A DNA stretch of 41,198 bases from a virus (taxonomy: Duplodnaviria; Caudoviricetes). Below the pieces are notes generated by a model. The model worked only from the letters and a program-made list of their open reading frames with translations. It was not told where the DNA came from and did no database searches. Below are positions 3,728-40,848 of the stretch, in pieces. Location: IMG/VR virus record IMGVR_UViG_3300044723_002720, positions 1-41,198 of that record, one strand, 5' to 3'. Numbering within the stretch: position 1 is the first letter of the stretch; each line of letters opens with the position of its first letter. Both the position numbers and the translations under genes were made by a program.

Positions 3728-3770
3728 AGGATTGATGGAGTGTCTTCAAAGACACTCCTAATCCTTTTTA
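3728..3770 (+). terminator. Intrinsic terminator after the MCP, built around one copy of the 18-bp palindrome (3739-3756)
   Basis: AGGATT-GAT-GGAGTGTCTT-CA-AAGACACTCC-T-AATCCT followed by TTTT. Confidence 0.7.
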
Positions 3771-23307: not shown

Positions 23308-23325
23308 AGTGTCTTCGAAGACACT
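23308..23325. repeat. 18-bp palindrome copy (centre CG) at the convergence of the two transcription arms
   Basis: Begins on the base right after the TAA of the last + strand gene. Confidence 0.95.
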
Positions 23326-25415: not shown

Positions 25416-26674
25416 TAGAATAAACTGCTTTGTTTTTCCTTTTGGTTTAACACATCCCTCTTAAAATGTGCAAGGGTATAATCTTTCTTCTTAGACACTG
25501 CCTTATAAATATCATACTCTATTCCATCCTTTGCAAATATCCAATAGACTTTGTTCTTCAACCTATCAGATGTTACCATTCTGTCTTTGCTTTGCCAATA
25601 AGATGTAGCCGAGAAATCTATGTTGTAATATACCAAAAAATCTGCTTCCTTTAAACTGACTCCCTCCCTACCACTAACGATTTGTAATGCTATATTCTTA
25701 TCAGTGTCTTCGAAGACACTCAATTCTGTGGTTAAGCTATCTCCGAACACATCCTTCAATGCGTTCAGTTCCTCCTTGAACTTGTAGAATATTCCAATCT
25801 TCTTACCTAAGAAGTGGGAGTATATAAACTCTGCCTTACTATAATCAAACACCATAGAGTTTCCACCTTCAAACTTTACAGTTCCACTATACATTTGGTG
25901 TAGCTTTTGCATCAGCTTTACAGGTGTATCTGCTAATACCACTTCCTCTTTGCCCTCTATAACTCTATGCTTGGTCAATTTGTTTACCATTCTATAGGTC
26001 GTTGGCTGCATCTCCACCTCTAATATATTCTCCTCTGTTACTACCTTAAATCCTGCCTGCTTCTGTGTAAACGATATAGTGTGTGGCTTCATCTCCTTAA
26101 GGATTTTATCCATACCCCTGCTATAATCATTGACCATCATCGAGTTAATCTTTCGCTGCCTTACATCCACATAATCTTTGGCAAACTTATAGAAGTTGGC
26201 ATAGTTTCTAAATGGATTATCAGCTATGCCATATACTTGATGATACATCTGTGAGTATGATTCGGGAGTCGGAGTTCCACTCAAGAATATAACCTTTGAT
26301 TTGCACTTAGCTACCATGTCTTTCACTTGCTTGGCTCTCTTGTTTGGTTTTGGAAATGCCCCCAATGTGTGTGCTTCATCTGCTATGATTACATCCCACT
26401 TGATGTCAGGTAGCTTGTGCATACTCTCGTAGTTTATAATCCAAATACTGAAGTTATTTGGACACATTAGGTCATAGTCCTTGCTGATTGAATCCATAGC
26501 TTTCTTCTTAGTTAGAAACAGCACATGGCTTACTCCTATCTCTTCGCATATTCCCATAGCAGTTAGTGTCTTGCCTGTTCGAACTTCCATAGCTAGGTAT
26601 AGAAAGCTATTGGTGGATAGCTTCTTTGAGCCTTCGTTTATTATTTCTTTTTGGTATGGTCGAAACTCCATCAT
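25415..26674 (-). CDS. Superfamily 2 (SNF2-like) helicase
   Basis: RPYQ Q-motif, TGKT Walker A, DEAH box, SGTP motif III, Q..DR motif VI. Confidence 0.9.
   Translation of the reverse strand: MMEFRPYQKEIINEGSKKLSTNSFLYLAMEVRTGKTLTAMGICEEIGVSHVLFLTKKKAMDSISKDYDLMCPNNFSIWIINYESMHKLPDIKWDVIIADEAHTLGAFPKPNKRAKQVKDMVAKCKSKVIFLSGTPTPESYSQMYHQVYGIADNPFRNYANFYKFAKDYVDVRQRKINSMMVNDYSRGMDKILKEMKPHTISFTQKQAGFKVVTEENILEVEMQPTTYRMVNKLTKHRVIEGKEEVVLADTPVKLMQKLHQMYSGTVKFEGGNSMVFDYSKAEFIYSHFLGKKIGIFYKFKEELNALKDVFGDSLTTELSVFEDTDKNIALQIVSGREGVSLKEADFLVYYNIDFSATSYWQSKDRMVTSDRLKNKVYWIFAKDGIEYDIYKAVSKKKDYTLAHFKRDVLNQKEKQSSLF
25703..25720. repeat. 18-bp palindrome copy (centre CG), inside helicase CDS
   Basis: Exact core, read as SVFEDT in the helicase frame. 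Confidence 0.95.
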
Positions 26675-30633: not shown

Positions 30634-31374
30634 TTAAAATAATTCCTCCTTATGAAACCAAGAACGAACATCCTCTGTAGGATTGCTCCCAAAGAATTTG
30701 TTGTACACTTGTATTGCTTGTTCAACCTTACGCTTACCACTCTCATAAAATGATTCAGCACAAGGAAACTCTGCGAGTCTATTACTACCTTTCTCTCCAA
30801 CTAGGAAGAGCATTGGCTTACCAAAGAACTCTCGGTACAGATACGCTTGGCTATCGTAGTTATACTTCTTTGCGTTCCATTTAAAGTCTTTGATACTCTT
30901 AGTGGTCTTCAAGTCAATGATAACATCGTCAGACAATATATCTGTTTTACCTTTCCAAAACAAACCCATTACCTCCTTGATTGCAGGAACTTCGTATTGA
31001 TTCCCCATTTGATATATCAATGAAGAGAAGTATTCGCTATGCTTCATAGCACCAACGAGAAAGTTTATCTCATCGACTTCCTTCTGTAGTAATAGGAATG
31101 GTTCTCCCGATTCAGCAACTGCATCTGTATACTTCTTTGCCCTACGAGATGATACATCAATAGACTTTATAGTGTCTATTTTTTGGGGTTCTATAAGTGC
31201 GTAGTGAAACAACCTACCCATAGCAAAGTTTGCATTGTCTTCCCTCGACACACCAAAACTTAATGGGTCTGTCAGTAGCGTGCCAATATCTGAATTGGAT
31301 AGGTACTTCTTACCCACACCCTTATAGTATTGCTCATCATCTTTGAGCAAGTCTAAGTCTTTCTCTAAACTCAT
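30634..31374 (-). CDS. RecE/ExoVIII-like PD-(D/E)XK exonuclease (DUF3799-like)
   Basis: LSNS, G..FH...IEP, KGKTD, IIDLKTT and Y.YD.QA.LY motifs. Confidence 0.85.
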   Translation of the reverse strand: MSLEKDLDLLKDDEQYYKGVGKKYLSNSDIGTLLTDPLSFGVSREDNANFAMGRLFHYALIEPQKIDTIKSIDVSSRRAKKYTDAVAESGEPFLLLQKEVDEINFLVGAMKHSEYFSSLIYQMGNQYEVPAIKEVMGLFWKGKTDILSDDVIIDLKTTKSIKDFKWNAKKYNYDSQAYLYREFFGKPMLFLVGEKGSNRLAEFPCAESFYESGKRKVEQAIQVYNKFFGSNPTEDVRSWFHKEELF

Positions 31375-31391
31375 ATGGTTTAATTTATGAG

Positions 31392-31409
31392 AGTGTCTTC
31401 AAAGACACT
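31392..31409. repeat. 18-bp palindrome copy (centre CA)
   Basis: GAGAGTGTCTTCAAAGACACTCTC, 17 nt upstream of the exonuclease ATG. Confidence 0.95.
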
Positions 31410-31420
31410 CTCGGATTAAA

Positions 31421-32029
31421 TTATTTTAGGATGTTATTGATTTCTTGCAGGGTTTCTTTCGGTAGTATGTACTTAGTTCTAACTTGTGATATAAGTAACT
31501 CAGTAGCAGTTCCCTTTTCATACTCGTTAGTAATGTACTCTACCACCTTCTTCCAATTAGGAGTACCAACCTTTAGTTGTGGCTTTGTCTTTCTGACTGC
31601 TGCCTTCTCCTTTACCTGCTCAGTAGGTTCACTTGATTGTGGCAAGTCTTCCCCTGCGTAGATGTACAATCCAAGACCATGCCTTGCAATAGCTTTGGTC
31701 AATGACCTTTGGATGCTTGAGTTCACATGGAATGATGTGATTGATTCACAAGGAATACTCTTGTTCCTATAGTCCATAATAGGTAGGTACTCGATGTGTT
31801 CGATGTCGTCTATGCGAACACCTGTCTTTACCCACCCTGTCATTCCATCGTGATGGTAGTTCAATCCATACTCATTCTCATAAACACGATAGGTTGCATT
31901 AGGGTAGTGTTCCTTAACAATACCCCACGCCCACGCCCAAGATAGATAAGACAATCCATTCTTCTTTTCTACCTTGTCGTTTACATTAATCTTGGATAGT
32001 ATCTCCCAAGTTGATTTCGTCTTTGACAT
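31421..32029 (-). CDS. Sak-like (DUF1071, Rad52-family) single-strand annealing protein
   Basis: LSKINVND.VEKK.GLSYLSWAWAW, LPIMDYRNK and QR.LTKAIARHGLGLYIYAGEDLP motifs. Confidence 0.9.
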   Translation of the reverse strand: MSKTKSTWEILSKINVNDKVEKKNGLSYLSWAWAWGIVKEHYPNATYRVYENEYGLNYHHDGMTGWVKTGVRIDDIEHIEYLPIMDYRNKSIPCESITSFHVNSSIQRSLTKAIARHGLGLYIYAGEDLPQSSEPTEQVKEKAAVRKTKPQLKVGTPNWKKVVEYITNEYEKGTATELLISQVRTKYILPKETLQEINNILK

Positions 32030-32429
32030 AATTCCTTTCTTTAAATTGTTTAGTTTGATGATGAAATAATTTAATCAATCTTTCTCGGTAGTTCTTAAAG
32101 GTCTGTATCTTTCGGAAGTTGTTTCTGTTGTTAACTTCGTATCTGATTTTATCATTGACACCCTCTATTCTTTTGAGGATGTTGGACATCATCAGCCAAT
32201 ACACTCCTTGTTTTAATCCGTAGGTTTTAAATACATCAATCTCTTCTTCCTTGAGTTTGACATAGTAATCCCCACCCCTTGCTGTATTGTAGAACTCTAT
32301 CTGCCCACTCAACTTATCTCGGATAATCTTACATCCAAATAAAAGTCGTGCTTCGTAGAGCCTTGTGTCAAGTGGAACAGACAATCTATCTTCGCCTGCC
32401 TGCTCCCATAATTGTATCTCGGTAAACAT
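31986..32429 (-). CDS. Hypothetical protein
   Basis: 147 aa, TAATG-coupled to the upstream gene. Confidence 0.7.
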   Translation of the reverse strand: MFTEIQLWEQAGEDRLSVPLDTRLYEARLLFGCKIIRDKLSGQIEFYNTARGGDYYVKLKEEEIDVFKTYGLKQGVYWLMMSNILKRIEGVNDKIRYEVNNRNNFRKIQTFKNYRERLIKLFHHQTKQFKERNYVKDEINLGDTIQD

Positions 32430-32725
32430 TATTGTAGTGATTCAAACATGACTTCATAGTTAACATCATCTACAAACTTCTTCTCCATCCTTCTTATGGC
32501 ATTGATGATTGCAGTATGAGATACCTTGTGTCCATACTCAAGCATAAACTTTTGAATGGTAGCTACCCTCATCGGTCTGTTTTTGCACAACTTCCAAAGC
32601 ATATGTCTTGCTGCCGTAACATCTCTATCTAAATTCTTTGATAGAATGAGGCTCTTAGTAATGCCCATCTTTTCTGACACTGCACTTAGGTATAAATCAA
32701 ATGCTTCTTTGTTTTGTCTTCTCAT
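32429..32725 (-). CDS. DnaA domain IV (Bac_DnaA_C)-like HTH DNA-binding protein
   Basis: ILSK...R.V..ARHM...L and HTAII.AIRR match the DnaA C-terminal signature. Confidence 0.7.
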   Translation of the reverse strand: MRRQNKEAFDLYLSAVSEKMGITKSLILSKNLDRDVTAARHMLWKLCKNRPMRVATIQKFMLEYGHKVSHTAIINAIRRMEKKFVDDVNYEVMFESLQ

Positions 32726-32847
32726 TGTTTTTCGTTTTCCGATTCGTAAATATGTTTAGGTTTAGTAAACATTTCTTCTTGATATTCTTCTTCGAGCATA
32801 TTGTAATGGTCTTCCATTACCTGCTCCCATTTTAATTTAGTCTTCAT
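32722..32847 (-). CDS. Small acidic protein (41 aa), not in the ORF track
   Basis: MKTKLKWEQVMEDHYNMLEEEYQEEMF..., ATGA-coupled to the DnaA-C-like gene, just downstream of a promoter. Confidence 0.6.
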   Translation of the reverse strand: MKTKLKWEQVMEDHYNMLEEEYQEEMFTKPKHIYESENEKQ

Positions 32848-32866
32848 ATTAGATACTTCATTGTTA

Positions 32867-32897
32867 CAAATATATTAAAATTAACTTTCATCTCCAA
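32867..32897 (-). promoter_or_regulatory. Bacteroidota sigma-A promoter
   Basis: On the - strand TTG, 20 nt, TATATTTG. Confidence 0.6.
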
Positions 32898-33027
32898 CTA
32901 CTTTGTTGATTTTTTCCTTGATTGATTTGTTTTCATCTATGATACCCTGCTCATCCCACCACTTGTGGTCTTCTGCACTTTGTATCTCCATAATTCTTTT
33001 CAATCTTTCAAATTGATTCTCACTCAT
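32881..33027 (-). CDS. Small protein (48 aa), not in the ORF track
   Basis: MSENQFERLKRIMEIQSAEDHKWWDEQG..., 22 nt downstream of a palindrome copy. Confidence 0.6.
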   Translation of the reverse strand: MSENQFERLKRIMEIQSAEDHKWWDEQGIIDENKSIKEKINKVVGDES

Positions 33028-33049
33028 TGTTTAAAGTTTTAAAACGCAG

Positions 33050-33067
33050 AGTGTCTTCGAAGACACC
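33050..33067. repeat. Palindrome copy (centre CG, one terminal change)
   Basis: GCAGAGTGTCTTCGAAGACACCCTGC. The change gives a G.U pair on the - strand. Confidence 0.95.
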
Positions 33068-33096
33068 CTGCTAAAAAATACCCCAATCTCAAATTC

Positions 33097-33306
33097 TTAT
33101 ACCTCGATATGTCGTAGGTTGTTAATCTCCTCCATAATCTCTTCGAGGTGTTCGTTAAAAAGTTCCCTGCCTACACCAAGCAACTCTCCGTTGTTTGTTG
33201 TTTCCATTATGGCTTTCAATTTCTTTAGTGCATCCACCCCTTGATGGGCAGTCCTAAGATAGCTTGCTGTTGCATCAATCAAGATGCTCATTAGTTTGTT
33301 ATCCAT
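33097..33306 (-). CDS. Hypothetical protein
   Basis: 69 aa ORF tiling the operon. Confidence 0.65.
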   Translation of the reverse strand: MDNKLMSILIDATASYLRTAHQGVDALKKLKAIMETTNNGELLGVGRELFNEHLEEIMEEINNLRHIEV

Positions 33307-33316
33307 GTCGTTAAGT

Positions 33317-33610
33317 TTAAAATGTTGTGATTATATTTCCTTCTATTATTTCCATTGTGCTTTGTACTATGTACATGGAAAAAGATTTATCCCCAAACTT
33401 ATTCCATAGTCTTTCATCCCTTGTCTTGATAAAGTCTTGAACCAAACTATAACTCATTATGGTTCTTGCTATAGATTGTATTACACCTACAGATTCTTCA
33501 TCGTTATATCGGATTGCCTTTGGGTTGTCATCCCTTGACCTTTCCCAAGTCGTTGCGACATGGATTAGTATTGCGTTAAAAATTTGTGCTTCAACTGATT
33601 CAATTCTCAT
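33317..33610 (-). CDS. Hypothetical protein
   Basis: 97 aa, ATGA overlap with the upstream gene. Confidence 0.7.
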   Translation of the reverse strand: MRIESVEAQIFNAILIHVATTWERSRDDNPKAIRYNDEESVGVIQSIARTIMSYSLVQDFIKTRDERLWNKFGDKSFSMYIVQSTMEIIEGNIITTF

Positions 33611-33855
33611 TGTCTTCTGTTTTGAAAGTGAATAGATAGTTCCACATCTGTCCTATTGTTGATGATTACATATTCATAGAACCAATCCTTACGGAATACC
33701 TGCATGATTATCTCATCATCTTTCTTGCTAACGAATGTCTTGTAACCCCACGACCTTGTGATGGCATACATCTCTTCGCTTCTTGTTTCAAACTCATAGA
33801 GCCTGCATAATTCCAAGAACAGATGCTTGTTTGTTATGTTCTCGTGTGTTGTCAT
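33607..33855 (-). CDS. Hypothetical protein
   Basis: Start probably 33855 (ATGA overlap with the GH73 stop), 33873 is the alternative. Confidence 0.6.
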   Translation of the reverse strand: MTTHENITNKHLFLELCRLYEFETRSEEMYAITRSWGYKTFVSKKDDEIIMQVFRKDWFYEYVIINNRTDVELSIHFQNRRQ

Positions 33856-34502
33856 AGACTTCTCTTTATCCAATTAGAAAATTCGTTTAGCTTGTACTCC
33901 TCTATTATCCTCAATAGATTCTTCGTGTAGTTTATATCTGTGGCATAGCCACGCTGCTGTAACTCTTTCGCAAACTCGTAGCAATCCAACTCTCGGAAGT
34001 CCAAGTCTGCGTACCTGCTATTCGCCAAGAACCATTCACTCCTATCGACAAAGCATAGTTCTGCACTTTCGTATGTTCTGAACTTACTCTTTCGTGAAAC
34101 TCTTTTACCCTTGACATATTCATCCGAGTAGTAGTCAGCACCCTGCATACCCTTTCGGTATTCCTTGATGCCGAAGTAGTTGTGGTATTCTTTCGCCAGC
34201 TTAGACCTGCCCCAACCACTCTCAAGAATGGCTTGGGCAGTCATAACTTCCATTGGTAATCCCCACTTCAACTCCTCTGCCAATGCAGGAACTAACACCT
34301 TGTTTAGAAAGTCTGCTTGGTATGGTTTCAAATCCAAGTTACCTTGCAGCCAATCCTCTGTACCCTCACGCAACATTTCTTCCAAGTCCGTATCGTATGT
34401 ACGCAACTCTCTGAATGTATCGTATGGCATTTCTAAATCCCTTACACACGATGATAATAATAGTGTGATTATGATTGATACAATTAATCTTTTATTTCTC
34501 AT
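33852..34502 (-). CDS. GH73 glucosaminidase/muramidase (FlgJ-like) with lipoprotein signal peptide
   Basis: AQAILESGWG.S.LA...NYFGIK and GYATD..Y motifs, N-terminus MRNKRLIVSIIITLLLSS-C19. Confidence 0.9.
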   Translation of the reverse strand: MRNKRLIVSIIITLLLSSCVRDLEMPYDTFRELRTYDTDLEEMLREGTEDWLQGNLDLKPYQADFLNKVLVPALAEELKWGLPMEVMTAQAILESGWGRSKLAKEYHNYFGIKEYRKGMQGADYYSDEYVKGKRVSRKSKFRTYESAELCFVDRSEWFLANSRYADLDFRELDCYEFAKELQQRGYATDINYTKNLLRIIEEYKLNEFSNWIKRSL

Positions 34503-34505
34503 AAT

Positions 34506-34751
34506 TTAATGTTGAATTGAAAATCTAATTTCTCCATCTTTAATACATTTGTATCCACCATAGACAGAACCTTCTGTTTCCTTCTCTATCTCTTGGATTA
34601 AATGCATTGTGTCTATCCCTTGTTCTCTTGGTGCGGGATAATAGAAAGCAGTTCTCCCATTGTCAGCAGTTTTCTGTGCCATTTCAAGGATGCTTTGAAT
34701 GTGCTTTTTGAAGTTATTTTCAAGAGCAACTTTGTTTACTACTATTTTCAT
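34506..34751 (-). CDS. Hypothetical protein
   Basis: 81 aa ORF tiling the operon. Confidence 0.7.
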   Translation of the reverse strand: MKIVVNKVALENNFKKHIQSILEMAQKTADNGRTAFYYPAPREQGIDTMHLIQEIEKETEGSVYGGYKCIKDGEIRFSIQH

Positions 34752-34900
34752 AATTCTAATCCTTGTTCGTTATAAATGGTATAGTCCTTGTCGGGGTTTT
34801 CCCCTCGAAGTCTATACATTTCTTGTATAGCATCGGCTAACTTGTCAATAACCAAGACCGATTCAAACTTTCCGTTTGTTGTTTCTATTACCTCAAACAT
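34748..34900 (-). CDS. Small protein (50 aa), not in the ORF track
   Basis: MFEVIETTNGKFESVLVIDKLADAIQEMYRLRGENPDKDYTIYNEQGLEL, overlaps both neighbours (ATGA at its 3' end). Confidence 0.7.
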   Translation of the reverse strand: MFEVIETTNGKFESVLVIDKLADAIQEMYRLRGENPDKDYTIYNEQGLEL

Positions 34901-35087
34901 TGTGCATTTCGTTTTCGTTAATGAATGATTGTACTGCTTGGCGAATGGTCATACCTTTGTTACAGATTTTTTCCCAAGCATATAGATATACCTCTGTGTA
35001 TCTAACGATTACTCTGTCTGTCTTATCCCTTAGACTTGGGAATCTATCCCTAATCTCATTACATATTTCCTTTTGTAAGTTTGTCAT
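34893..35087 (-). CDS. Hypothetical protein
   Basis: Start reassigned to the ATG at 35087, downstream of the degenerate palindrome. Confidence 0.65.
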   Translation of the reverse strand: MTNLQKEICNEIRDRFPSLRDKTDRVIVRYTEVYLYAWEKICNKGMTIRQAVQSFINENEMHNV

Positions 35088-35102
35088 TGTTATTTTATTT
35101 GT

Positions 35103-35120
35103 GGTGTCGTACAAGACACC
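35103..35120. repeat. Degenerate palindrome copy
   Basis: GGTGTCGTACAAGACACC keeps the GTGTC/GACAC arms and the tttgt / ttgtt flanks. Confidence 0.7.
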
Positions 35121-35147
35121 TTGTTATTTAAAAGTTTTAAAGGAGAG

Positions 35148-35165
35148 AGTGTCTTCAAAGACACT
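35148..35165. repeat. 18-bp palindrome copy (centre CA)
   Basis: GAGAGAGTGTCTTCAAAGACACTCCCTC. Confidence 0.95.
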
Positions 35166-35184
35166 CCCTCTGAAATCTGCATAA

Positions 35185-36360
35185 TTAAAACGGAAAATCC
35201 GTATCTGCGTGGAACACATCGCCACATGGAGTGCAGTATGCCAACCCCTCGTACTCGTCAACAAGACATTGTGTACTGCAATTAGGACAGATGTTATCGT
35301 TAGCAAATGTTCTGCTATTGATAGTCCAACTCGGTAATTTTTTCTGTAAGTCAGACAACTTCTGTGTCTTTGTCTTTGTCTTGGTCTGTGTGGGAGTGAA
35401 TGAATAGTCCACCCCATAGTCATAGCTATCCCAATCTGCTGACCACTCGTAGTCATCCCAAGTATTCATATCGTAGCTATTCTGCTTGGTACTGCGATTC
35501 CATATCGTACCCTCATATGATTGTACGACATTCTTACGCTGATGCTCGGCAAGTCCGAAGAAGTCCTCGTTGATGAAGTACACCCACGCATCTACAACCT
35601 CGCCACTATCCAATACAATCTGCGTTACCTTGCGTGTATAGAAGTTGGGATGCCCCTCCAACCTATCCAAGTCAATCATCTCCCAATGGTCGCAGTCATA
35701 CACCTCGACATCTACATTGTGTCCAACACCTTTGGTATCGTACATATACGGAAGACCCGATACACGCAAGGGATATTTACTTTTGGTCTTACCGTTGCCG
35801 ACAAACTTTGCTGACTTGATTAGTCCGTGATTGCCATACCCCTGCTTGAGTGTGCCATAGACAGCCACCCTTTTCATAAGCACATTGTCTTTGGAATACC
35901 AAACGCCATCGTGTCTGTACCAATCATCCTTGTTGTATATCTGATAGGATTTGTAATGCGTGTTGACCGTAACAAATCGGCAGTCAAATTGTGCCAAGTG
36001 TTTCTTCCACTTTGCCCTACGCATATTGCATAGGTGATTAGCCAAGTCTTGTGTGTCGGTCATGTCCTTGTTACCATACCCCATAATTGTACCATTCTGC
36101 ATGAGGTACTCGTGTGGATTGTTGCCACAAGGGAACGGATGGATGTTGTCCTTACACACCTTGCCGATTGTCGCATACCTAAAGTGTGCTATGAATGGTC
36201 TGTTGGTCTGTAATAGTTTCCAATCCCTTGATTCGTGGTATGTAATCTCGTAGCTATCAAGCCACACCACACCAAGTCCATGTGGATTTATGATAGACGA
36301 CCTGCGTAGTATGTTGGTGTCTATTTTGTTGTCGTTATTCTTTACAATAATTACGCACAT
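35185..36360 (-). CDS. Class II glutamine amidotransferase fused to gamma-glutamylcyclotransferase (AIG2-like) and a C-terminal Zn ribbon
   Basis: N-terminal M-C, NPHG.G, HFRYAT, HPF, NG, TD motifs, then VAVYGTLK.G and LD.LEG, then CPNC...CTPC. Confidence 0.88.
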   Translation of the reverse strand: MCVIIVKNNDNKIDTNILRRSSIINPHGLGVVWLDSYEITYHESRDWKLLQTNRPFIAHFRYATIGKVCKDNIHPFPCGNNPHEYLMQNGTIMGYGNKDMTDTQDLANHLCNMRRAKWKKHLAQFDCRFVTVNTHYKSYQIYNKDDWYRHDGVWYSKDNVLMKRVAVYGTLKQGYGNHGLIKSAKFVGNGKTKSKYPLRVSGLPYMYDTKGVGHNVDVEVYDCDHWEMIDLDRLEGHPNFYTRKVTQIVLDSGEVVDAWVYFINEDFFGLAEHQRKNVVQSYEGTIWNRSTKQNSYDMNTWDDYEWSADWDSYDYGVDYSFTPTQTKTKTKTQKLSDLQKKLPSWTINSRTFANDNICPNCSTQCLVDEYEGLAYCTPCGDVFHADTDFPF

Positions 36361-36377
36361 AATTTCTTATATTTATG

Positions 36378-36395
36378 AGTGTCTTTGAAGACACT
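36378..36395. repeat. 18-bp palindrome copy (centre TG)
   Basis: Between amidoligase and GATase, 17 nt before the ATG. Confidence 0.95.
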
Positions 36396-36398
36396 CGG

Positions 36399-37331
36399 TT
36401 AATAATTGTCATATATAAAATCTCCTGCCAATGTACCGTAGTCAACTGCATTGTTGTCGATAACTTCTTGGAACGAAGTGGCAACACGATATATAAACTC
36501 TATACGATTTGCTAATAACTCGTCTGTTTGGCAGTCAGAACGATACATTCTATTAAGAATAGGCAGCATCTTGTCAAACATTTTCTTGAATGTCATACGA
36601 TTCTTACCACTTTCGTGGATGAGTGTGTACAATAACTCATACCTGCGTATCATCTGCTCAACAGAATCTACTCGGTTAATAAGTCTGAACTCTATAACAT
36701 TACCCTTTACCAGCACAGGTTGATACCTTGAACTTATACTGCCGTAGTATCTACTGCCCTCTCGTGCTTCGTCATAGGTACGCAGTGTGATGTTTTGTCG
36801 GCAGTAAGAATTTTTTAATCGCCCTCTCCATAGTGCGTATATGATTCCCATAAATGGTCTTACCCTTTTCAGTATGTCGTTACCATACATATCCCTAATA
36901 CCTATCGTTATGTGTCCACCACAATCTTGATTGGCAGGAGAATACTGACTATCTATAATCCTTTCGGCATCATAGAACAAGGAGAACACCTTGCTTCGCC
37001 ACTCGCTTGGAGGAAGTAATGGTAGGATGTTTGTGATTGCTTCCACACCACAAGAGCCATCCCTTTCGAACCCACAGAATAATGGGTAACGCTTGACTGC
37101 TCGTGGTGCAAACTCATTCTTTTCAATCTCGAATCCTATGGTATACCTACATACATCGGCATCCATAATGAGTCCTCTATCTCTTTTTGGTAAGGACTTG
37201 ATGTCATCTTCTAATCCACTTGCCATATATCTTGGACTTGGACTATTGTGATAACCTACTACTCGGTTTCTGTGAGGAACGGCATCATTTGTATACACGA
37301 TTCCCTTTGGTTTTAATAAATGCAGATTCAT
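36399..37331 (-). CDS. Putative amidoligase (COOH-NH2 ligase, Amidoligase_2-like)
   Basis: TIGFEIE, DGS..VE, CGGHI and IEFR motifs, adjacent to GATase-GGCT. Start reassigned to ATG 37331. Confidence 0.8.
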   Translation of the reverse strand: MNLHLLKPKGIVYTNDAVPHRNRVVGYHNSPSPRYMASGLEDDIKSLPKRDRGLIMDADVCRYTIGFEIEKNEFAPRAVKRYPLFCGFERDGSCGVEAITNILPLLPPSEWRSKVFSLFYDAERIIDSQYSPANQDCGGHITIGIRDMYGNDILKRVRPFMGIIYALWRGRLKNSYCRQNITLRTYDEAREGSRYYGSISSRYQPVLVKGNVIEFRLINRVDSVEQMIRRYELLYTLIHESGKNRMTFKKMFDKMLPILNRMYRSDCQTDELLANRIEFIYRVATSFQEVIDNNAVDYGTLAGDFIYDNY

Positions 37332-37350
37332 AATAACTGATTGCTTTGTG

Positions 37351-37368
37351 AGTGTCTTTGAAGACACT
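37351..37368. repeat. 18-bp palindrome copy (centre TG)
   Basis: 19 nt before the ATG at 37331. Confidence 0.95.
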
Positions 37369-37379
37369 CGATGATTAAA

Positions 37380-37610
37380 TTATAATTCAATTTCTTTTGT
37401 AGTAACAATGTCTGTTACTCCCCAAGCTACGCTGACAGATACCTTGTACCCACAATCTCGCAGCTTTTTAATAATGGCGTGTCTGTTGTGCCAAACATCT
37501 TTATCCCAACCACTATAATCGCAAGTGCATAATTTGGAATAGCCGTTCTTTGTTGCATAGTCCATTTCTTCTTTGGCTATGCGTGTCAACTTCTGTCTTA
37601 AGTCTTCCAT
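37380..37610 (-). CDS. Hypothetical early protein
   Basis: 76 aa with an A-rich leader. Confidence 0.7.
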   Translation of the reverse strand: MEDLRQKLTRIAKEEMDYATKNGYSKLCTCDYSGWDKDVWHNRHAIIKKLRDCGYKVSVSVAWGVTDIVTTKEIEL

Positions 37611-37629
37611 CCTTTTTTGTTTTAGTTAA

Positions 37630-37854
37630 TTAATTTATTGACTTATTGTTATTACTTATAGTATCTAGGTAAATAATTTCATCGTTAATTGTTAGGTATT
37701 CTCTACCATTCATCTCTGAATCTCCCCACACTTCCATATAGCCAATGCAAAAATCATTGACATACAATTCTACCATTGAGCCTTTTTTAGTGTAAGATAA
37801 TTCGTCATATGTATTAAAGAATATCCTATCCTGTTCTGTTAGTATCCCTATCAT
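37630..37854 (-). CDS. Hypothetical early protein
   Basis: 74 aa, downstream of the promoter at 37902-37933. Confidence 0.65.
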   Translation of the reverse strand: MIGILTEQDRIFFNTYDELSYTKKGSMVELYVNDFCIGYMEVWGDSEMNGREYLTINDEIIYLDTISNNNKSIN

Positions 37855-37901
37855 ATCTTTGTATAGATTTATAAATAAATTAATTAGTTACATTTACCTT
37901 A

Positions 37902-37933
37902 CAAATATAAGACATTTATATGACAATGTCAAA
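37902..37933 (-). promoter_or_regulatory. Consensus Bacteroidota sigma-A promoter
   Basis: On the - strand TTTG, 20 nt, TATATTTG. The spacer holds the inverted repeat GACATT-N8-AATGTC. Confidence 0.75.
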
Positions 37934-37964
37934 TATTATTTTTTCTAAAGTGTTCTGAGAACAG

Positions 37965-37982
37965 AGTGTCTTTGAAGACACT
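37965..37982. repeat. 18-bp palindrome copy (centre TG)
   Basis: ACAG-AGTGTCTTTGAAGACACT-AT-CTGT, overlapping the TAG of the upstream gene. Confidence 0.95.
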
Positions 37983-38148
37983 ATCTGTGGCCATACTTTT
38001 CGTGGAACTCTGCCTGCCTGACTAATCTTTTAGCCGACTTAACTATGGCATCCCACCACTCTTGCTCGGTCTTGTTCGCAGGCTTGTTCGCCCAAAAAGA
38101 ATCGTTCTTTTGTAGCCGTTTTGCTAATTCGATTACTGCTTTCTCCAT
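37981..38148 (-). CDS. Hypothetical early protein (55 aa)
   Basis: ATG at 38148, 19 nt from the palindrome. The track's GTG start lies inside the repeat. Confidence 0.7.
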   Translation of the reverse strand: MEKAVIELAKRLQKNDSFWANKPANKTEQEWWDAIVKSAKRLVRQAEFHEKYGHR

Positions 38149-38167
38149 TTTAATTTTGATTTGTGAG

Positions 38168-38185
38168 AGTGTCTTCAAAGACACT
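38168..38185. repeat. 18-bp palindrome copy (centre CA)
   Basis: tttgtGAGAGTGTCTTCAAAGACACTCCCttgtt. Confidence 0.95.
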
Positions 38186-38207
38186 CCCTTGTTAATTGTA
38201 TTTAGTT

Positions 38208-38576
38208 CTACTCTTCAAGGAAGCATTCCTTTCCATTCGGAGTGATGTGCATTTTTACTCGACCCATCGGATGGTCTATATAAATTACTGCCTGCTTTAC
38301 ATTTCTGTATGGTATCAATTTATACTCATCTTTCCTGCCTTGTAGTCCCATCACAAAATCTATTCCAAGATCCATTATACTGAACCAATTCGTTCCGTCT
38401 TTAGCATCCTTATCGTCTACATCTAGGGTAGTTATGTATATATATCTTATAACTCGGTTGTCTTTTCGCCATATGTGAAAATATCTGTCGATACTTTCTT
38501 CTCCAATCATTAGCTTTGCAGGTTTCTGCACGATTGGAATTACTGAATCTACGATTCCATTAGAAAACTTTCTCAT
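38208..38576 (-). CDS. Hypothetical early protein
   Basis: 122 aa filling the space between two repeats. Confidence 0.75.
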   Translation of the reverse strand: MRKFSNGIVDSVIPIVQKPAKLMIGEESIDRYFHIWRKDNRVIRYIYITTLDVDDKDAKDGTNWFSIMDLGIDFVMGLQGRKDEYKLIPYRNVKQAVIYIDHPMGRVKMHITPNGKECFLEE

Positions 38577-38594
38577 CTTGTTTAGCTTTGTGAG

Positions 38595-38612
38595 AGTGTC
38601 TTCAAAGACACT
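38595..38612. repeat. 18-bp palindrome copy (centre CA)
   Basis: Same extended flanks as the 38168 copy, 18 nt before the ATG. Confidence 0.95.
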
Positions 38613-38627
38613 CCCTTGTTTGAAAAT

Positions 38628-38996
38628 TTATTTGTTGAACCCACGCAATATTTCGTCGGTAAATCTCTCTCGATTAGTGTTATAATTCCACTTCATAGAA
38701 GCAATCACATTTACTATTTCGTCTATTGAATCTTGGTCAGAGTACAAATTACTTTCGACTGCTAAGATTCCATTGAACCATACCTTTATGATAAAGTGAT
38801 TGTCTATAGTGCCATCCATATGTAGCGTGGTTTCTATGTTGGTTTCTATTTTAGCAGACTCCAACTGATGTTCCAATACCTTTGGGTTATCAAATTTTAT
38901 CTTGAGTTTCCCACTATGGATATACCCATCTATGCTTTTGGGATTGTTGGTAGCCAATTCCTTGACTAAATCCCCAATGTGTTTAAATAAATACAT
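38628..38996 (-). CDS. Hypothetical early protein (122 aa)
   Basis: Start reassigned to ATG 38996, fills one repeat-bounded unit. Confidence 0.75.
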   Translation of the reverse strand: MYLFKHIGDLVKELATNNPKSIDGYIHSGKLKIKFDNPKVLEHQLESAKIETNIETTLHMDGTIDNHFIIKVWFNGILAVESNLYSDQDSIDEIVNVIASMKWNYNTNRERFTDEILRGFNK

Positions 38997-39015
38997 TTTG
39001 TTTAGCTTTGTGAAG

Positions 39016-39033
39016 AGTGTCTTTGAAGACACT
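39016..39033. repeat. 18-bp palindrome copy (centre TG)
   Basis: tttgtGAAGAGTGTCTTTGAAGACACTCTCCgatt, 19 nt before the ATG. Confidence 0.95.
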
Positions 39034-39063
39034 CTCCGATTAGAAAATTTATTTGTTCATAGT

Positions 39064-39375
39064 TTAGTATTCAAAACCTTTTACTTCGGTTTCATTACCA
39101 TCCCAATAGTACCCATTCAGATACCACACAAAATTCTTTTGGTATATGTGTACATTGGGCAGTCCATTAAGCCTTTCCTTTGTGGTGTTTGTTGCCCAAC
39201 CACAATTACTTATGTATAGCTTTCTACCTTGTTCGGTATGCTTTATCTTTGCTATGACATTTCCATGTAGGCATAGCCAAGTTTCGTGCGTGTCTGCAAT
39301 CACTTGCATATTGCTTTTCGCAAACGGCTCATTGTTCAGAAAAGCCTTGACACTTTCGTGAGTTATCTTTCTCAT
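39064..39375 (-). CDS. Phage hypothetical early protein
   Basis: MRKIT...LHGN.IA...GW.TNTTKERLNGL pattern, which I recall from other phage early proteins of unknown function. Confidence 0.75.
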   Translation of the reverse strand: MRKITHESVKAFLNNEPFAKSNMQVIADTHETWLCLHGNVIAKIKHTEQGRKLYISNCGWATNTTKERLNGLPNVHIYQKNFVWYLNGYYWDGNETEVKGFEY

Positions 39376-39394
39376 TTAAAGATTCTTTGTGAAG

Positions 39395-39412
39395 AGTGTC
39401 TTCGAAGACACT
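39395..39412. repeat. 18-bp palindrome copy (centre CG)
   Basis: Same extended flanks as the 39016 copy, 19 nt before the ATG. Confidence 0.95.
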
Positions 39413-39426
39413 CTCCGATTGAAAAA

Positions 39427-39681
39427 TTATTTACTTTCGTTATACTTATCTACCCATTCTTGTGGTGTGTAAATGACACACTCCTTTGTTGAGTTTTCGG
39501 ACTCTATCCTAACTTGCATATACTCCACAGTTATTCGTGACCATGTGCGTACACCATTCGGAAAATCCATTCGTGTTACTCCCTTGCCAAGTTTTACTCC
39601 CTTTTCATTCGGATACTTTGCAAATAGTGCTGACAACTCCTTTAATAGTTCAGCTTTGTCAATCTTAATGACATCATTCAT
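39427..39681 (-). CDS. Hypothetical early protein (84 aa)
   Basis: Start reassigned to ATG 39681. Confidence 0.75.
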   Translation of the reverse strand: MNDVIKIDKAELLKELSALFAKYPNEKGVKLGKGVTRMDFPNGVRTWSRITVEYMQVRIESENSTKECVIYTPQEWVDKYNESK

Positions 39682-39700
39682 TTTATTTAGCTTTGTGGAG

Positions 39701-39718
39701 AGTGTCTTCGAAGACACT
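39701..39718. repeat. 18-bp palindrome copy (centre CG)
   Basis: tttgtGGAGAGTGTCTTCGAAGACACTCCCCgatt, 19 nt before the ATG. Confidence 0.95.
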
Positions 39719-39731
39719 CCCCGATTTCAAA

Positions 39732-40025
39732 TCAATAAATACAACCTTTGTTTAGACTTTCGAAATCGAAATTCCACCCACTTTTCAGTAGTTCTGCGAT
39801 TACAAAATTCGGCATCGCAGTTCCCCAATTCTTTGTGATTAAGCTATCTTCGAATTTGAAGAAGCCACTTATACCATAGGTACTGAAGTTATCAAACTCC
39901 CAACGACCATCGCCATCCTTAGAGAATCTTAAAATCAATTCCCCATTGTACCCATTGTATTTAATGGGTTGGCAATGTCTTACTGCTGACGCATTTTGCA
40001 GCAGTGTTACTACATGACATTCCAT
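39732..40025 (-). CDS. Hypothetical early protein (97 aa)
   Basis: ATG at 40025, 19 nt from the palindrome. The longer track ORF reads through two repeats from a TTG. Confidence 0.65.
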   Translation of the reverse strand: MECHVVTLLQNASAVRHCQPIKYNGYNGELILRFSKDGDGRWEFDNFSTYGISGFFKFEDSLITKNWGTAMPNFVIAELLKSGWNFDFESLNKGCIY

Positions 40026-40044
40026 ATCATTTTTTTCAGTGAAG

Positions 40045-40062
40045 AGTGTCTTCGAAGACACT
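40045..40062. repeat. 18-bp palindrome copy (centre CG)
   Basis: Exact core. Confidence 0.95.
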
Positions 40063-40127
40063 CCGTAAATCCAAATTTCTTCTACTACCTTAAGCCCTAT
40101 CCTTTGCAGGAATCGGGCAGGCAGGAG

Positions 40128-40145
40128 AGTGTCTTCAAAGACACT
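40128..40145. repeat. 18-bp palindrome copy (centre CA)
   Basis: Exact core with the CCCTTGTT flank, only 65 nt from the previous copy. Confidence 0.95.
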
Positions 40146-40169
40146 CCCTTGTTTGTAGATAGCCAAAGA

Positions 40170-40811
40170 TTACATTTCGCTAACCATAGCCATTAGTTCG
40201 GTCAAAGAAGCCAAGATGCTTTCTTTGTCGCAGGTAGTTATAATCGTACCATTGTCGATACGGAAGTTTACCCCATTCGTTTTGTCCACAAAGGTATGCG
40301 TAGTCGTACCCTCGCTTTCGCCATCGGCCTCACCGTTGCCTTCCCCTGATTGGTCAGCACTCCCCTTTGGAGGATTAATCGCGTCTTCAATAGACATCCC
40401 CTCTTCAAGGTTTTTTGCGAATTTTAACAATTCTGCAATACTCAAACTTTTCCTTTTGCCGCTCTCGTTTTGAAACTCGATAGCAGCACTTTCGTACTTA
40501 GACCACATTTCTTGTCCTAAGTCGTAGGCCTTAATTGCCTTGTATAACCAAGATTTGTCAAAGCCAAAGGATACTTTAAAATAGCCATCCTTTCTTAAGT
40601 CTAACCCCATAGACATTCGCAATTCTTTACAGCTCGGCGAATCGAAGTAAGCCGAAGCATTTTTAGCTAATTCACCTAACTCAAGTGAAGCATAAAATTT
40701 GCGTTTGTCATTGTTAACAAGTTTAGCCTTAGCTCTTTTGATTGCTTCGGTATTAATACTTGTTTTAACTCGGTCATCGTTAAAAAATCTTTTGATAATA
40801 GTATTCATCAT
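40170..40811 (-). CDS. First early gene, possible HTH DNA-binding protein (DUF3102-like pattern)
   Basis: LELGELA...FGFDKSWLYKAIKAY...SIAELLK resembles DUF3102-type helical proteins. An acidic Gly/Ser linker precedes a small C-terminal domain. Confidence 0.5.
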   Translation of the reverse strand: MMNTIIKRFFNDDRVKTSINTEAIKRAKAKLVNNDKRKFYASLELGELAKNASAYFDSPSCKELRMSMGLDLRKDGYFKVSFGFDKSWLYKAIKAYDLGQEMWSKYESAAIEFQNESGKRKSLSIAELLKFAKNLEEGMSIEDAINPPKGSADQSGEGNGEADGESEGTTTHTFVDKTNGVNFRIDNGTIITTCDKESILASLTELMAMVSEM

Positions 40812-40830
40812 TTTTGATTTGTGAAGACCA

Positions 40831-40848
40831 AGTGTCTTCGAAGACACT
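40831..40848. repeat. 18-bp palindrome copy (centre CG)
   Basis: GAAGA-CCA-core-CAA-TCTCC, 19 nt before the ATG at 40811. Confidence 0.95.

What the first reader, a model, noticed from the sequence alone, without database searches (positions are those of the whole stretch)
31374..40848. Palindrome sits at a fixed distance (19 nt) upstream of the start codon
Seen: the gap from core to ATG on the - strand is exactly 19 nt for genes starting at 40811, 40025, 39681, 39375, 38996, 38148 and 37331. It is 18 nt for 38576, 17 nt for 36360 and 31374, and 22 nt for 33027. The gap is A-rich (e.g. CTTCACAAAGCTAAACAAA-ATG). Distance to the upstream stop is loose (overlap to 30 nt). Established: Bacteroidota largely initiate without Shine-Dalgarno pairing, using A-rich unstructured leaders. 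Inference: repeat plus leader is a portable translation or mRNA-processing module that places a hairpin just outside the 30S footprint, for example a binding site for a translational regulator or a protective 5' hairpin after cleavage.
Basis: partly seen in the sequence, partly recalled or inferred. Interest (0 to 1): 0.8.

Follow-up and report, generated by a model that had tools for sequence, protein, structure and literature searches.

The report
Phage-wide operator palindromes with switching specificity
The repeat is a 16-base DNA palindrome scattered through this phage genome and its relatives, even inside genes, that changes whenever the predicted DNA-reading helix of the phage's first early protein changes, so it is likely that protein's binding site, while the ~19-base gap before start codons likely just leaves room for the ribosome.

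Summary
The gaps are as reported (19 nt x7, 18, 17, 17, 22), but only 11 of 18 exact copies precede a start that way; two sit in frame inside genes. The gap is not special to the palindrome: in relatives a type III hammerhead often follows it, and a ~21-nt gap then runs from the ribozyme's end. It matches the known unstructured Bacteroidota initiation region.

The palindrome (GTGTCYT-YR-ARGACAC) behaves like a double-stranded DNA site. It freezes synonymous codons in terminase and helicase, tolerates broken stem pairs, and has a copy upstream of the predicted early promoter. All 64 loci fetched by the first early protein (40170-40811; helix-turn-helix, weak ParB/KorB-type fold) carry it. Where that protein's recognition helix is remodelled the sites change: a close relative has 7 of 7 copies with an R-Y centre, and the window keeps one such relic at 35104.

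Best reading: a genome-wide operator network for a phage dimeric repressor, likely damping early transcription and giving immunity-like specificity types; intergenic copies double as mRNA hairpins. Binding and function are untested. The phage is an uncultured relative of Flavobacteriia podoviruses. Not found in print in ten searches.

The parts
40170..40811 (-). First early gene (called c19 here), 213 aa: predicted helical hairpin, helix-turn-helix domain (recognition helix about residues 86-97), acidic linker, C-terminal three-strand plus helix domain. Proposed binder of the palindrome.
   Evidence: AlphaFold models; fold searches; family of 1079 proteins; co-variation with the sites
40832..40847 (.). 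Palindrome directly upstream of c19 (centre CG); stem extends 9 more pairs on the - strand, 4 of them G-U
40129..40144 (.). Palindrome after the c19 stop; no ATG at ~19 nt; followed by a second, unrelated hairpin
40085..40124 (-). Second hairpin with a GAU/UA internal loop, where relatives carry a hammerhead; two similar copies in L451; role unknown
40046..40061 (.). Palindrome upstream of the ORF at 40025
39702..39717 (.). Palindrome upstream of the ORF at 39681
39396..39411 (.). Palindrome upstream of the ORF at 39375 (Kyano_Gp96 family)
39017..39032 (.). Palindrome upstream of the ORF at 38996
38596..38611 (.). Palindrome upstream of the ORF at 38576; the orthologue in L451 keeps the leader but has an RY-type site
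38169..38184 (.). Palindrome upstream of the ORF at 38148
37966..37981 (.). Palindrome overlapping a stop codon, upstream of a host-type promoter; no nearby ATG
37902..37933 (-). Bacteroidota-type promoter match (TTTG, 20 nt, TATATTTG; consensus recalled)
   Evidence: sequence
37352..37367 (.). Palindrome upstream of the ORF at 37331
36379..36394 (.). Palindrome upstream of the ORF at 36360 (gamma-glutamyl cyclotransferase domain)
35149..35164 (.). YR-type palindrome 45 nt upstream of the relic RY-type copy
35104..35119 (.). Relic RY-type site (GTGTCTTGTACGACAC on -), letter for letter the 16-bp copy at L451:903; precedes the ORF at 35087, whose L451 orthologue is 95% identical and also has an RY site
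33051..33066 (.). Palindrome upstream of the ORF at 33027
31393..31408 (.). Palindrome between the Sak annealing gene and the exonuclease gene (ATG 31374)
25704..25719 (.). Palindrome in frame inside the helicase gene (reads SVFEDT); same place in many relatives
23309..23324 (.). Palindrome at the convergent junction of the structural and replication arms
18840..18855 (.). Palindrome in frame inside the 2317-aa virion protein gene (reads ESVFEDTL)
3740..3755 (.). Palindrome forming the top of a terminator-like hairpin after the major capsid gene; same place in most relatives

Best explanation
The palindrome is a two-fold symmetric 16-bp sequence spread over the whole genome, inside genes too, that changes together with the predicted recognition helix of the phage's first early protein (40170-40811), and it is likely that protein's double-stranded DNA operator, which would damp early transcription and silence incoming phages of the same specificity type. 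Steps. (1) Shown: host-type promoter matches and a long leftward early arm with c19 first. (2) Inferred: host RNA polymerase makes c19 first; it dimerises through its C-terminal domain and binds every copy, densely in the early arm and every 5-16 kb in the rest. (3) Inferred, least certain: bound dimers act as roadblocks or repressors, like mycobacteriophage stoperators or KorB without its CTP clamp, giving feedback on early genes and an immunity-like barrier; a relative escapes by changing helix and sites together. (4) Shown by covariation, not by assay: intergenic copies are extended into mRNA-strand hairpins, in many relatives just upstream of a hammerhead, so after cleavage the hairpin would protect the 3' end of the upstream message. 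(5) Inferred from established Bacteroidota biology: the ~15 nt between hairpin base and AUG is the minimum unstructured landing pad, so the '19 nt' is a packing constraint.
For: DNA-level constraint: copies in frame in terminase (47 of 54 distinct stretches; 46 of them use exactly TGT CTT CAA AGA CAC while flanking synonymous positions vary) and helicase (21 of 28). Most of these stretches were fetched for holding a site, but 10 of 12 genomes reached through a site elsewhere also have the terminase copy. G049 keeps the helicase peptide while the site has decayed at synonymous positions. Symmetry runs through the would-be loop: 396 of 396 matches in the 64 c19-selected loci have a Y-R centre although the pattern left it free (not dereplicated). 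The inner pair 6/11 is broken freely: 16 C-A against 13 U-G on the sense strand, and 7 of 8 exact-pattern copies in G033 are unpaired hybrids. Copies in genes (0.48 extra pairs) and in the divergent region (0.26) have no stem extension; for the 38 divergent-class sites, same-strand -7 boxes lie 125-224 nt downstream (20 hits) and none within 125 nt. Phage-specific: about 350 stretches in 596 Gb of cellular genomes against about 555 expected at even composition, with no taxon pattern. Link to c19: 64 of 64 loci fetched by the protein hold 2-11 copies; elemoE (50 of 60 kb read) and Panino have neither. ParB-family DNA-binding domains take 7 of the top 13 rows among 48,161 chains. Prediction tested: the clade with a different helix was fetched blind; L451, 75-88% identical in DNA to the window where they align, has a c19 28% identical in residues 1-150 but 76% in the C-terminal part (neighbouring orthologues 64-95%), and 7 of 7 sites have an R-Y centre. 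A second RY phage (L510) has a remodelled helix in another clade while its DnaA-like HTH keeps the common motif. All 3 c19 genes from phages with the G6/C11 variant start the helix with Ser-Lys; none of the 17 T-type genomes does. RNA layer: 53 of 227 intergenic sites are followed by a hammerhead core; 12 of 15 pairs show changes on both sides; Rfam RF00008 E 1e-7.
Against: No binding or expression data. The fold match is weak row by row (Z 3.7-4.8, rmsd 3.5-4.6; no Foldseek hit under E 0.5), and none of 163 family members scanned hits a ParB or DUF3102 Pfam model. Most sites are not next to a recognisable promoter: only 7 of 220 intergenic sites have a full promoter match 35-55 nt upstream. 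In L510 only 6 of 9 copies are RY; the other 3, including the helicase copy, are not. Holding the two RY proteins together is not clearly rejected (lnL 27.2 lower, p-AU 0.050), and the G-type proteins are long branches, so the number of independent switches is unsure. The 64 loci were found with patterns of the common helix, so they cannot show exceptions. Copy number ranges from 3 (G018, G032) to 18, and some genomes lack all late copies. No integrase or ParA turned up in the 131 proteins scanned, so a silent state is not evident. The DnaA-like HTH (32429-32725) also co-occurs with the sites.
Confidence: 0.62

Rival explanations
1. Same protein and same DNA sites, but the job is structural: c19 dimers bridge or compact the genome, position it in the cell or help pull it in, like a parS-type anchor, without regulating transcription.
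For: ParB-type fold hints; sites form a ladder whose spacing widens from about 1 kb at the early end to 5-16 kb; many copies are far from promoters and inside genes.
Against: No room for a ParB CTPase domain and no ParA found. A purely structural role does not explain specificity switches between close relatives or the crowding in front of early genes.
Confidence: 0.2
2. One reading: repeat plus leader is an RNA module, a hairpin set just outside the 30S footprint and bound by a translational regulator.
For: Gaps confirmed; sense-strand stems with G-U pairs; floor of about 14 nt between stem and AUG. In relatives the CA centre is favoured on the sense strand (125 CA against 48 TG).
Against: 7 of 18 window copies and at least 105 of 334 dereplicated sites are not between co-directional genes; a similar gap follows hammerheads; stem pair 6/11 is freely broken; one class of copy lies upstream of the predicted promoter; the candidate partner looks like a DNA-binding domain.
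Confidence: 0.08
3. The repeat is only a recombination and cassette boundary, as PeSL elements are in T4-like phages, spread by duplication; no protein reads it.
For: Near-identical 40-56 nt cassettes in the window; the 35087 cassette is shared with L451; contigs from other runs leave the window's sequence at cassette edges (38139, 39033, about 40118).
Against: Does not explain frozen codons in conserved core genes or the change of all sites with the c19 helix. Shuffling is probably a by-product.
Confidence: 0.05
4. Hairpin promoters for a virion RNA polymerase, as in N4 (recalled), with the A-rich stretch being the transcript's 5' leader.
For: Palindromes at a near-fixed distance from starts; crAss-like muzzle domain and a giant virion protein.
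Against: G-U-extended stems need the transcript to run through the palindrome; host-type -7 boxes lie downstream of the first site; no polymerase family hit among scanned proteins. The 2317-aa protein was not folded.
Confidence: 0.04

Closest known systems
Cluster A mycobacteriophage operators/stoperators (L5, TipsytheTRex; PMC9283540, passages seen)
   Same: Many copies of one short site across a phage genome, mostly in short intergenic gaps, read by a phage HTH protein; repressor and sites diversify between relatives.
   Different: There the site is an asymmetric 13-mer bound by a monomer and tied to transcription direction, in temperate phages. Here it is a 16-bp dyad, also recoded into genes, doubling as an RNA hairpin; no integrase was found.
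RK2 KorB/OB and other ParB-family DNA-binding domains (PMC11790492, section 'Main' and passages seen)
   Same: 16-bp palindromic site, proximal and distal copies, weak fold match of the HTH domain, linker and separate C-terminal domain.
   Different: c19 lacks the N-terminal ParB CTPase domain, so it should not form a sliding clamp; no ParA or KorA partner was found; different site sequence.
Clustered hammerhead ribozymes between phage genes (Perreault 2011, PMC3088659, passages seen)
   Same: Type III hammerheads between early genes, predicted to cut long transcripts into gene-length messages (relatives only).
   Different: Here the hammerhead is usually fused 5-13 nt behind a conserved palindrome hairpin. 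The window itself has none. Whether these sequences are in that paper's Dataset S1 was not checked.
PeSL promoter/stem-loop cassettes of T4-like phages (PMC4122927, abstract seen)
   Same: Repeated stem-loop cassette in front of variable small genes, with signs of cassette exchange.
   Different: Most cassettes here carry no promoter match, and the core also occurs in conserved coding sequence.
Bacteroidota translation initiation region (Baez 2019, PMC6847099, passages seen)
   Same: A-rich, low-structure zone from about -20, with adenines at -3, -6, -12 and -13; explains the gap.
   Different: Nothing new in the gap itself.

Membership tests
ParB/KorB CTPase clamp proteins | N-terminal ParB CTPase domain with the GERR-type motif | tested here: not met
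   Only about 35 residues precede the part that aligns with the DNA-binding domains, modelled as short helices; no ParB Pfam hit in 24 + 139 members
ParB/KorB CTPase clamp proteins | ParB-type helix-turn-helix DNA-binding domain | tested here: inconclusive
   KorB, SopB, VirB, Spo0J and P1 ParB at ranks 1, 4, 5, 6, 8, 12, 13 of 48,161, Z 3.7-4.8, 76-85 residues aligned; Foldseek E >= 0.5; Atlas look-alike cluster with DUF3102 on 42% of members, score 0.93
ParB/KorB CTPase clamp proteins | C-terminal dimerisation domain | not tested
   Three strands and a helix are predicted after an acidic linker; likeness to the P1 ParB/SopB dimer domain is recalled; the complex predictor was not available
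ParB/KorB CTPase clamp proteins | 16-bp palindromic DNA site | tested here: met
   binding itself is untested
ParB/KorB CTPase clamp proteins | Partner ParA ATPase | tested here: inconclusive
   None among 45 window proteins and 86 proteins chosen from two complete relatives; not every gene was scanned
Mycobacteriophage stoperator system | Many sites dispersed over the genome, mostly in short intergenic gaps | tested here: met
Mycobacteriophage stoperator system | Asymmetric 13-bp site tied to transcription direction | tested here: not met
   The site is a 16-bp dyad
Mycobacteriophage stoperator system | Block of transcription elongation and superinfection immunity | not testable with these tools
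   needs reporter and infection assays
Type III hammerhead ribozyme (relatives only) | CUGANGA, GAAA and NUH core | tested here: met
   none in the window
Type III hammerhead ribozyme (relatives only) | Three stems supported by covariation | tested here: met
   97.9% of cells paired, 12 of 15 pairs with changes on both sides, 26 sequences picked from 53
Type III hammerhead ribozyme (relatives only) | Rfam RF00008 gathering score (48.5 bits) | tested here: not met
   best 45.3 bits, E 1.2e-7, in three loci scanned by E-value; none at gathering level in 20 loci
Type III hammerhead ribozyme (relatives only) | Self-cleavage | not testable with these tools
   needs in vitro transcription
PeSL cassette | Early promoter joined to the stem-loop | tested here: not met
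   7 of 220 intergenic sites have a full promoter match 35-55 nt upstream (consensus recalled)
PeSL cassette | Gene exchange at the cassette | tested here: inconclusive
   shared 35087 cassette; loose contig ends at cassette edges

The most novel reading that the evidence does not exclude
A large group of apparently non-integrating Bacteroidota podoviruses carries a self/non-self system: the first protein made, a clamp-less ParB-type dimer, marks its own genome at a graded ladder of palindromes, silences or excludes co-infecting phages of the same type, and drives immunity-type switches in which helix and all sites change together. The same operators are reused as the 3' caps of ribozyme-cut early messages.
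Probability: 0.3. Interest if true: 0.85.

Novelty: new variant of a known kind. Interest (0 to 1): 0.72.

Why it matters
It assigns a testable DNA site to an unannotated phage protein family (1079 proteins at 90% clustering; no Pfam family) in a widespread group of aquatic Bacteroidota phages (about 560 IMG/VR stretches hold the site). Natural helix/site variants (YR, RY, G6) give a ready specificity code and candidate orthogonal repressor-operator pairs for Bacteroidota; 48 different three-residue helix starts among 148 distant members hint at more. If the sites silence competitors, immunity-like exclusion is not confined to integrating phages. One 16-mer serving as DNA operator and as RNA end-hairpin beside a hammerhead would be an unusual double use. 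The 19-nt spacing alone is ordinary.

Tried and rejected
Host-protein site (parS-, matS- or LexA-like): rejected, chance-level and taxon-free in cellular genomes; the one multi-copy contig, in a Cytophagales bin, carries this phage's genes. Cloning or assembly artefact: rejected. CpG decay as the cause of the centre variants: not needed, since TA centres are common and RY types exist. Rfam on the window: nothing. DnaA-like HTH (32429-32725) as binder: its helix motif does not track site type; not excluded. Searches for the variant c19 proteins in viral contigs found nothing. The profile search of 29 records (28 G-variant, one T-type bin) gave c19 in only 2; most are fragments or chance hits. 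Most of the 75 RY-pattern hits show no marker of this phage group. Profile search of solved structures by sequence: nothing. Sigma-70 scan: chance level, 37 against 37.0, wrong promoter type for this host. No RNA holder listed. The complex predictor was not available, so dimer formation was not modelled. The second hairpin's pattern gave 7 scattered hits, not examined. My gene caller is a hexamer model that often shortens starts; terminase-internal copies were partly classed as intergenic, so 64 coding copies is a lower bound. Two sites near contig ends were dropped; two long-branch rows. Earlier findings of this scan: none. Literature: ten searches found no description of this palindrome or protein; no supplements were read.

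Full report
What the window is. A 41.2-kb linear virus record, estimated 68% complete. The left arm (+) carries portal, capsid and virion genes with a crAss-like muzzle domain; the right arm (-) runs from small early genes through Sak, exonuclease, primase and helicase. The capsid protein is 69% identical to an uncultured spring-water podovirus (MW202828), 53% to Maribacter phage Panino, 47% to Elemovirus and 42% to Cellulophaga phi38:1. Nishimura 2017 (PMC5332604, passages) describes phi38:1-related, GroEL-bearing marine phages as probable Flavobacteriaceae viruses; complete relatives here encode GroEL/GroES.

The observation. There are 18 exact copies of GTGTCTTNNAAGACAC and one near copy, none in 100 shuffles. 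The eleven gaps quoted are right. Seven copies do not fit the claim, among them in-frame copies in the helicase and the giant virion protein and one atop a terminator-like hairpin after the capsid gene. Three leaders are near duplicates, and the 40811 start may be the second of two ATGs.

The gap. I pooled 18 genomes (the window among them) and 64 loci; 580 sites fell to 334 after dereplication: 229 between co-directional genes, 64 in genes, 38 divergent, 3 convergent (own gene caller). Without a ribozyme, 86 of 174 intergenic sites have an ATG within 30 nt, median 19.5, spread mainly over 14-23; from the base of the hairpin the floor is about 14 nt. In 53 of 227 intergenic sites a type III hammerhead core follows, with the predicted cut 5-13 nt after the palindrome in 47 of 52. 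Its stems covary strongly and it matches RF00008 at E 1e-7, just under the gathering score. There the gap runs from the ribozyme's end: 41 of 53 within 35 nt, median 21, minimum 15. So the gap follows whatever structure comes last, and it fits the low-structure zone from about -20 with adenines at -14 to -11 in F. johnsoniae (PMC6847099, passages). Hammerheads between phage genes are known (PMC3088659, passages). The window has none.

The RNA layer is real but secondary. Intergenic copies gain 2.32 extra pairs on the sense strand against 1.09 antisense and 1.00 +/- 0.07 permuted; 76 of 227 gain four or more on the sense strand, 16 on the other. As the predicted cut lies 3' of this hairpin, it would cap the upstream fragment. 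Copies in genes and in the divergent region gain nothing.

The core is constrained as DNA. In terminase it reads CLQRH and in helicase SVFEDT, with synonymous positions fixed while flanks drift; site-less relatives have other residues there, and G049 keeps the peptide with a decayed site (most stretches were selected for having a site, but 10 of 12 genomes reached through another site carry the terminase copy). The centre is Y-R in 396 of 396 matches. Pair 6/11 is broken as often as wobbled, and in G033 it is unpaired in 7 of 8 copies. For the divergent-class copies, host-type -7 boxes lie 125-224 nt downstream, so these copies are probably not in the early transcript. Cellular genomes hold the site at chance level. 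Along the genome the sites form a ladder, about 1 kb apart near c19 and 5-16 kb apart in late genes.

The likely reader. The first early gene, c19 (40170-40811), belongs to a family of 1079 proteins with no Pfam name. It folds confidently into helices with a helix-turn-helix, an acidic linker and a three-strand plus helix C-terminal domain. ParB-family DNA-binding domains fill 7 of the top 13 rows of a 48,161-chain search, each weak. All 64 loci fetched by this protein hold 2-11 sites; elemoE and Panino have neither in what was read. Three phages with a G6/C11 site start the helix with Ser-Lys. I then predicted that the clade with a quite different helix (P0007-P0013) would have a different site and fetched it by protein alone. 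L451 shares the window's promoter region and several early genes (75-88% DNA identity, orthologues 64-95%), its c19 is 28% identical in the first 150 residues but 76% in the C-terminal part, and all 7 of its sites have an R-Y centre, with similar leaders and gaps of 16-28 nt at the five that precede an ATG. The window's odd copy at 35104 is of this type, in front of a gene 95% identical to L451's, with a Y-R copy 45 nt upstream: likely an imported cassette that was re-tagged. A second RY phage, L510, has a remodelled helix inside another clade and an ordinary DnaA-like HTH; 6 of its 9 copies are RY. The two RY proteins are 16% identical and group with different YR proteins at support 99, but the test against one clade is borderline (p-AU 0.050).

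How it most likely works. c19 is made first, dimerises and occupies the sites (inferred, about 0.8). The effect is most likely repression or roadblock of early transcription with an immunity-like side (about 0.6 overall), by analogy with stoperators (PMC9283540, passages) and KorB (PMC11790492, section 'Main' and passages), and because matched switches of helix and sites are what escape from silencing would select. A structural role in genome entry or organisation is the main rival (0.2). Against the repressor reading: few sites are near promoter matches, copy number varies from 3 to 18, and no integrase or ParA was found among 131 proteins scanned.

Membership and novelty. It works like a stoperator or KorB-type network but is a member of neither: the site is symmetric, unlike stoperators, and the protein lacks the CTPase domain of ParB/KorB. 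Ten literature searches found no account of this site or protein; the library lacks most subscription papers and I read no supplements (the hammerheads may be listed in Perreault's Dataset S1). PeSL papers: abstract of PMC4122927, listing only for PMC2839356. The Bacteroidota promoter consensus, N4 promoters and the P1 ParB dimer fold are recalled.

Verdict. Spacing: real, ordinary. New variant of a known kind; interest 0.72.

Noticed in passing
relatives, e.g. L029:3020-3074, L043:3022-3072, L065:3022-3072, L510:6845-6930: Compact type III hammerhead ribozymes with a conserved UG(A/U)-type loop I sit right behind the palindrome in many relatives, up to three per early region; they fall just under Rfam's gathering score.
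   Followed up: yes
window 40085-40124 (-); L451:841-881 and L451:1665-1710: A second hairpin with a conserved CCC-GAU-UCC...GGA-UA-GGG internal loop lies, in the window and in one L451 copy, where relatives have a hammerhead; it could be a nuclease site or another processing element. No Rfam match.
   Followed up: partly
window 35104-35164: Tandem of a YR-type site and a relic RY-type site before the ORF at 35087, likely a cassette taken from an L451-like phage.
   Followed up: yes
G032:22665, G032:40967, G036:16911, G049:8190, G046:5440, MW202828:44264: G-type sites sit in acidic, low-complexity coding stretches (reading SVVNDT or SVVDDT), including inside the c19 gene itself in two genomes.
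   Followed up: partly
G038 (L396):270, 485, 1641; G032:43469: Further site variants with a CC centre-left (GTGTCGCCGACGACAC and similar) next to divergent c19 proteins; possibly more specificity types.
   Followed up: no
G017 and G004, G002: A second small palindrome family (GGACCT or GGTCCT arms, 2-nt spacer, 4-5 copies per genome).
   Followed up: no
L141:14269-14774 (G016): Adjacent Tad2-like and Acb2/Tad1 anti-defence genes in a relative's replication arm.
   Followed up: no
WTJX01000555.1 (G059:C198): A 56-kb contig in a Cytophagales bin holds 8 copies plus helicase and DnaA-like homologues of this phage group; a possible host hint or a co-binned phage.
   Followed up: partly
window 32429-32725 (-): Small DnaA domain IV-like HTH protein conserved in all palindrome-bearing genomes examined; possible replication or transcription factor.
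   Followed up: partly
window 35185-37331 (-): Two conserved early genes, a glutamine amidotransferase/gamma-glutamyl cyclotransferase fusion and its unnamed upstream neighbour, each usually preceded by a palindrome.
   Followed up: no
L001:483-556, L021:469-542: tRNA gene (UCU anticodon as read from the alignment) upstream of the early region in some relatives.
   Followed up: no
L319, L317, L359, L362, L365, L370 and the window's right end: Several contigs end 250-480 nt upstream of c19, suggesting a physical genome end or an assembly break at low-complexity repeats there.
   Followed up: no
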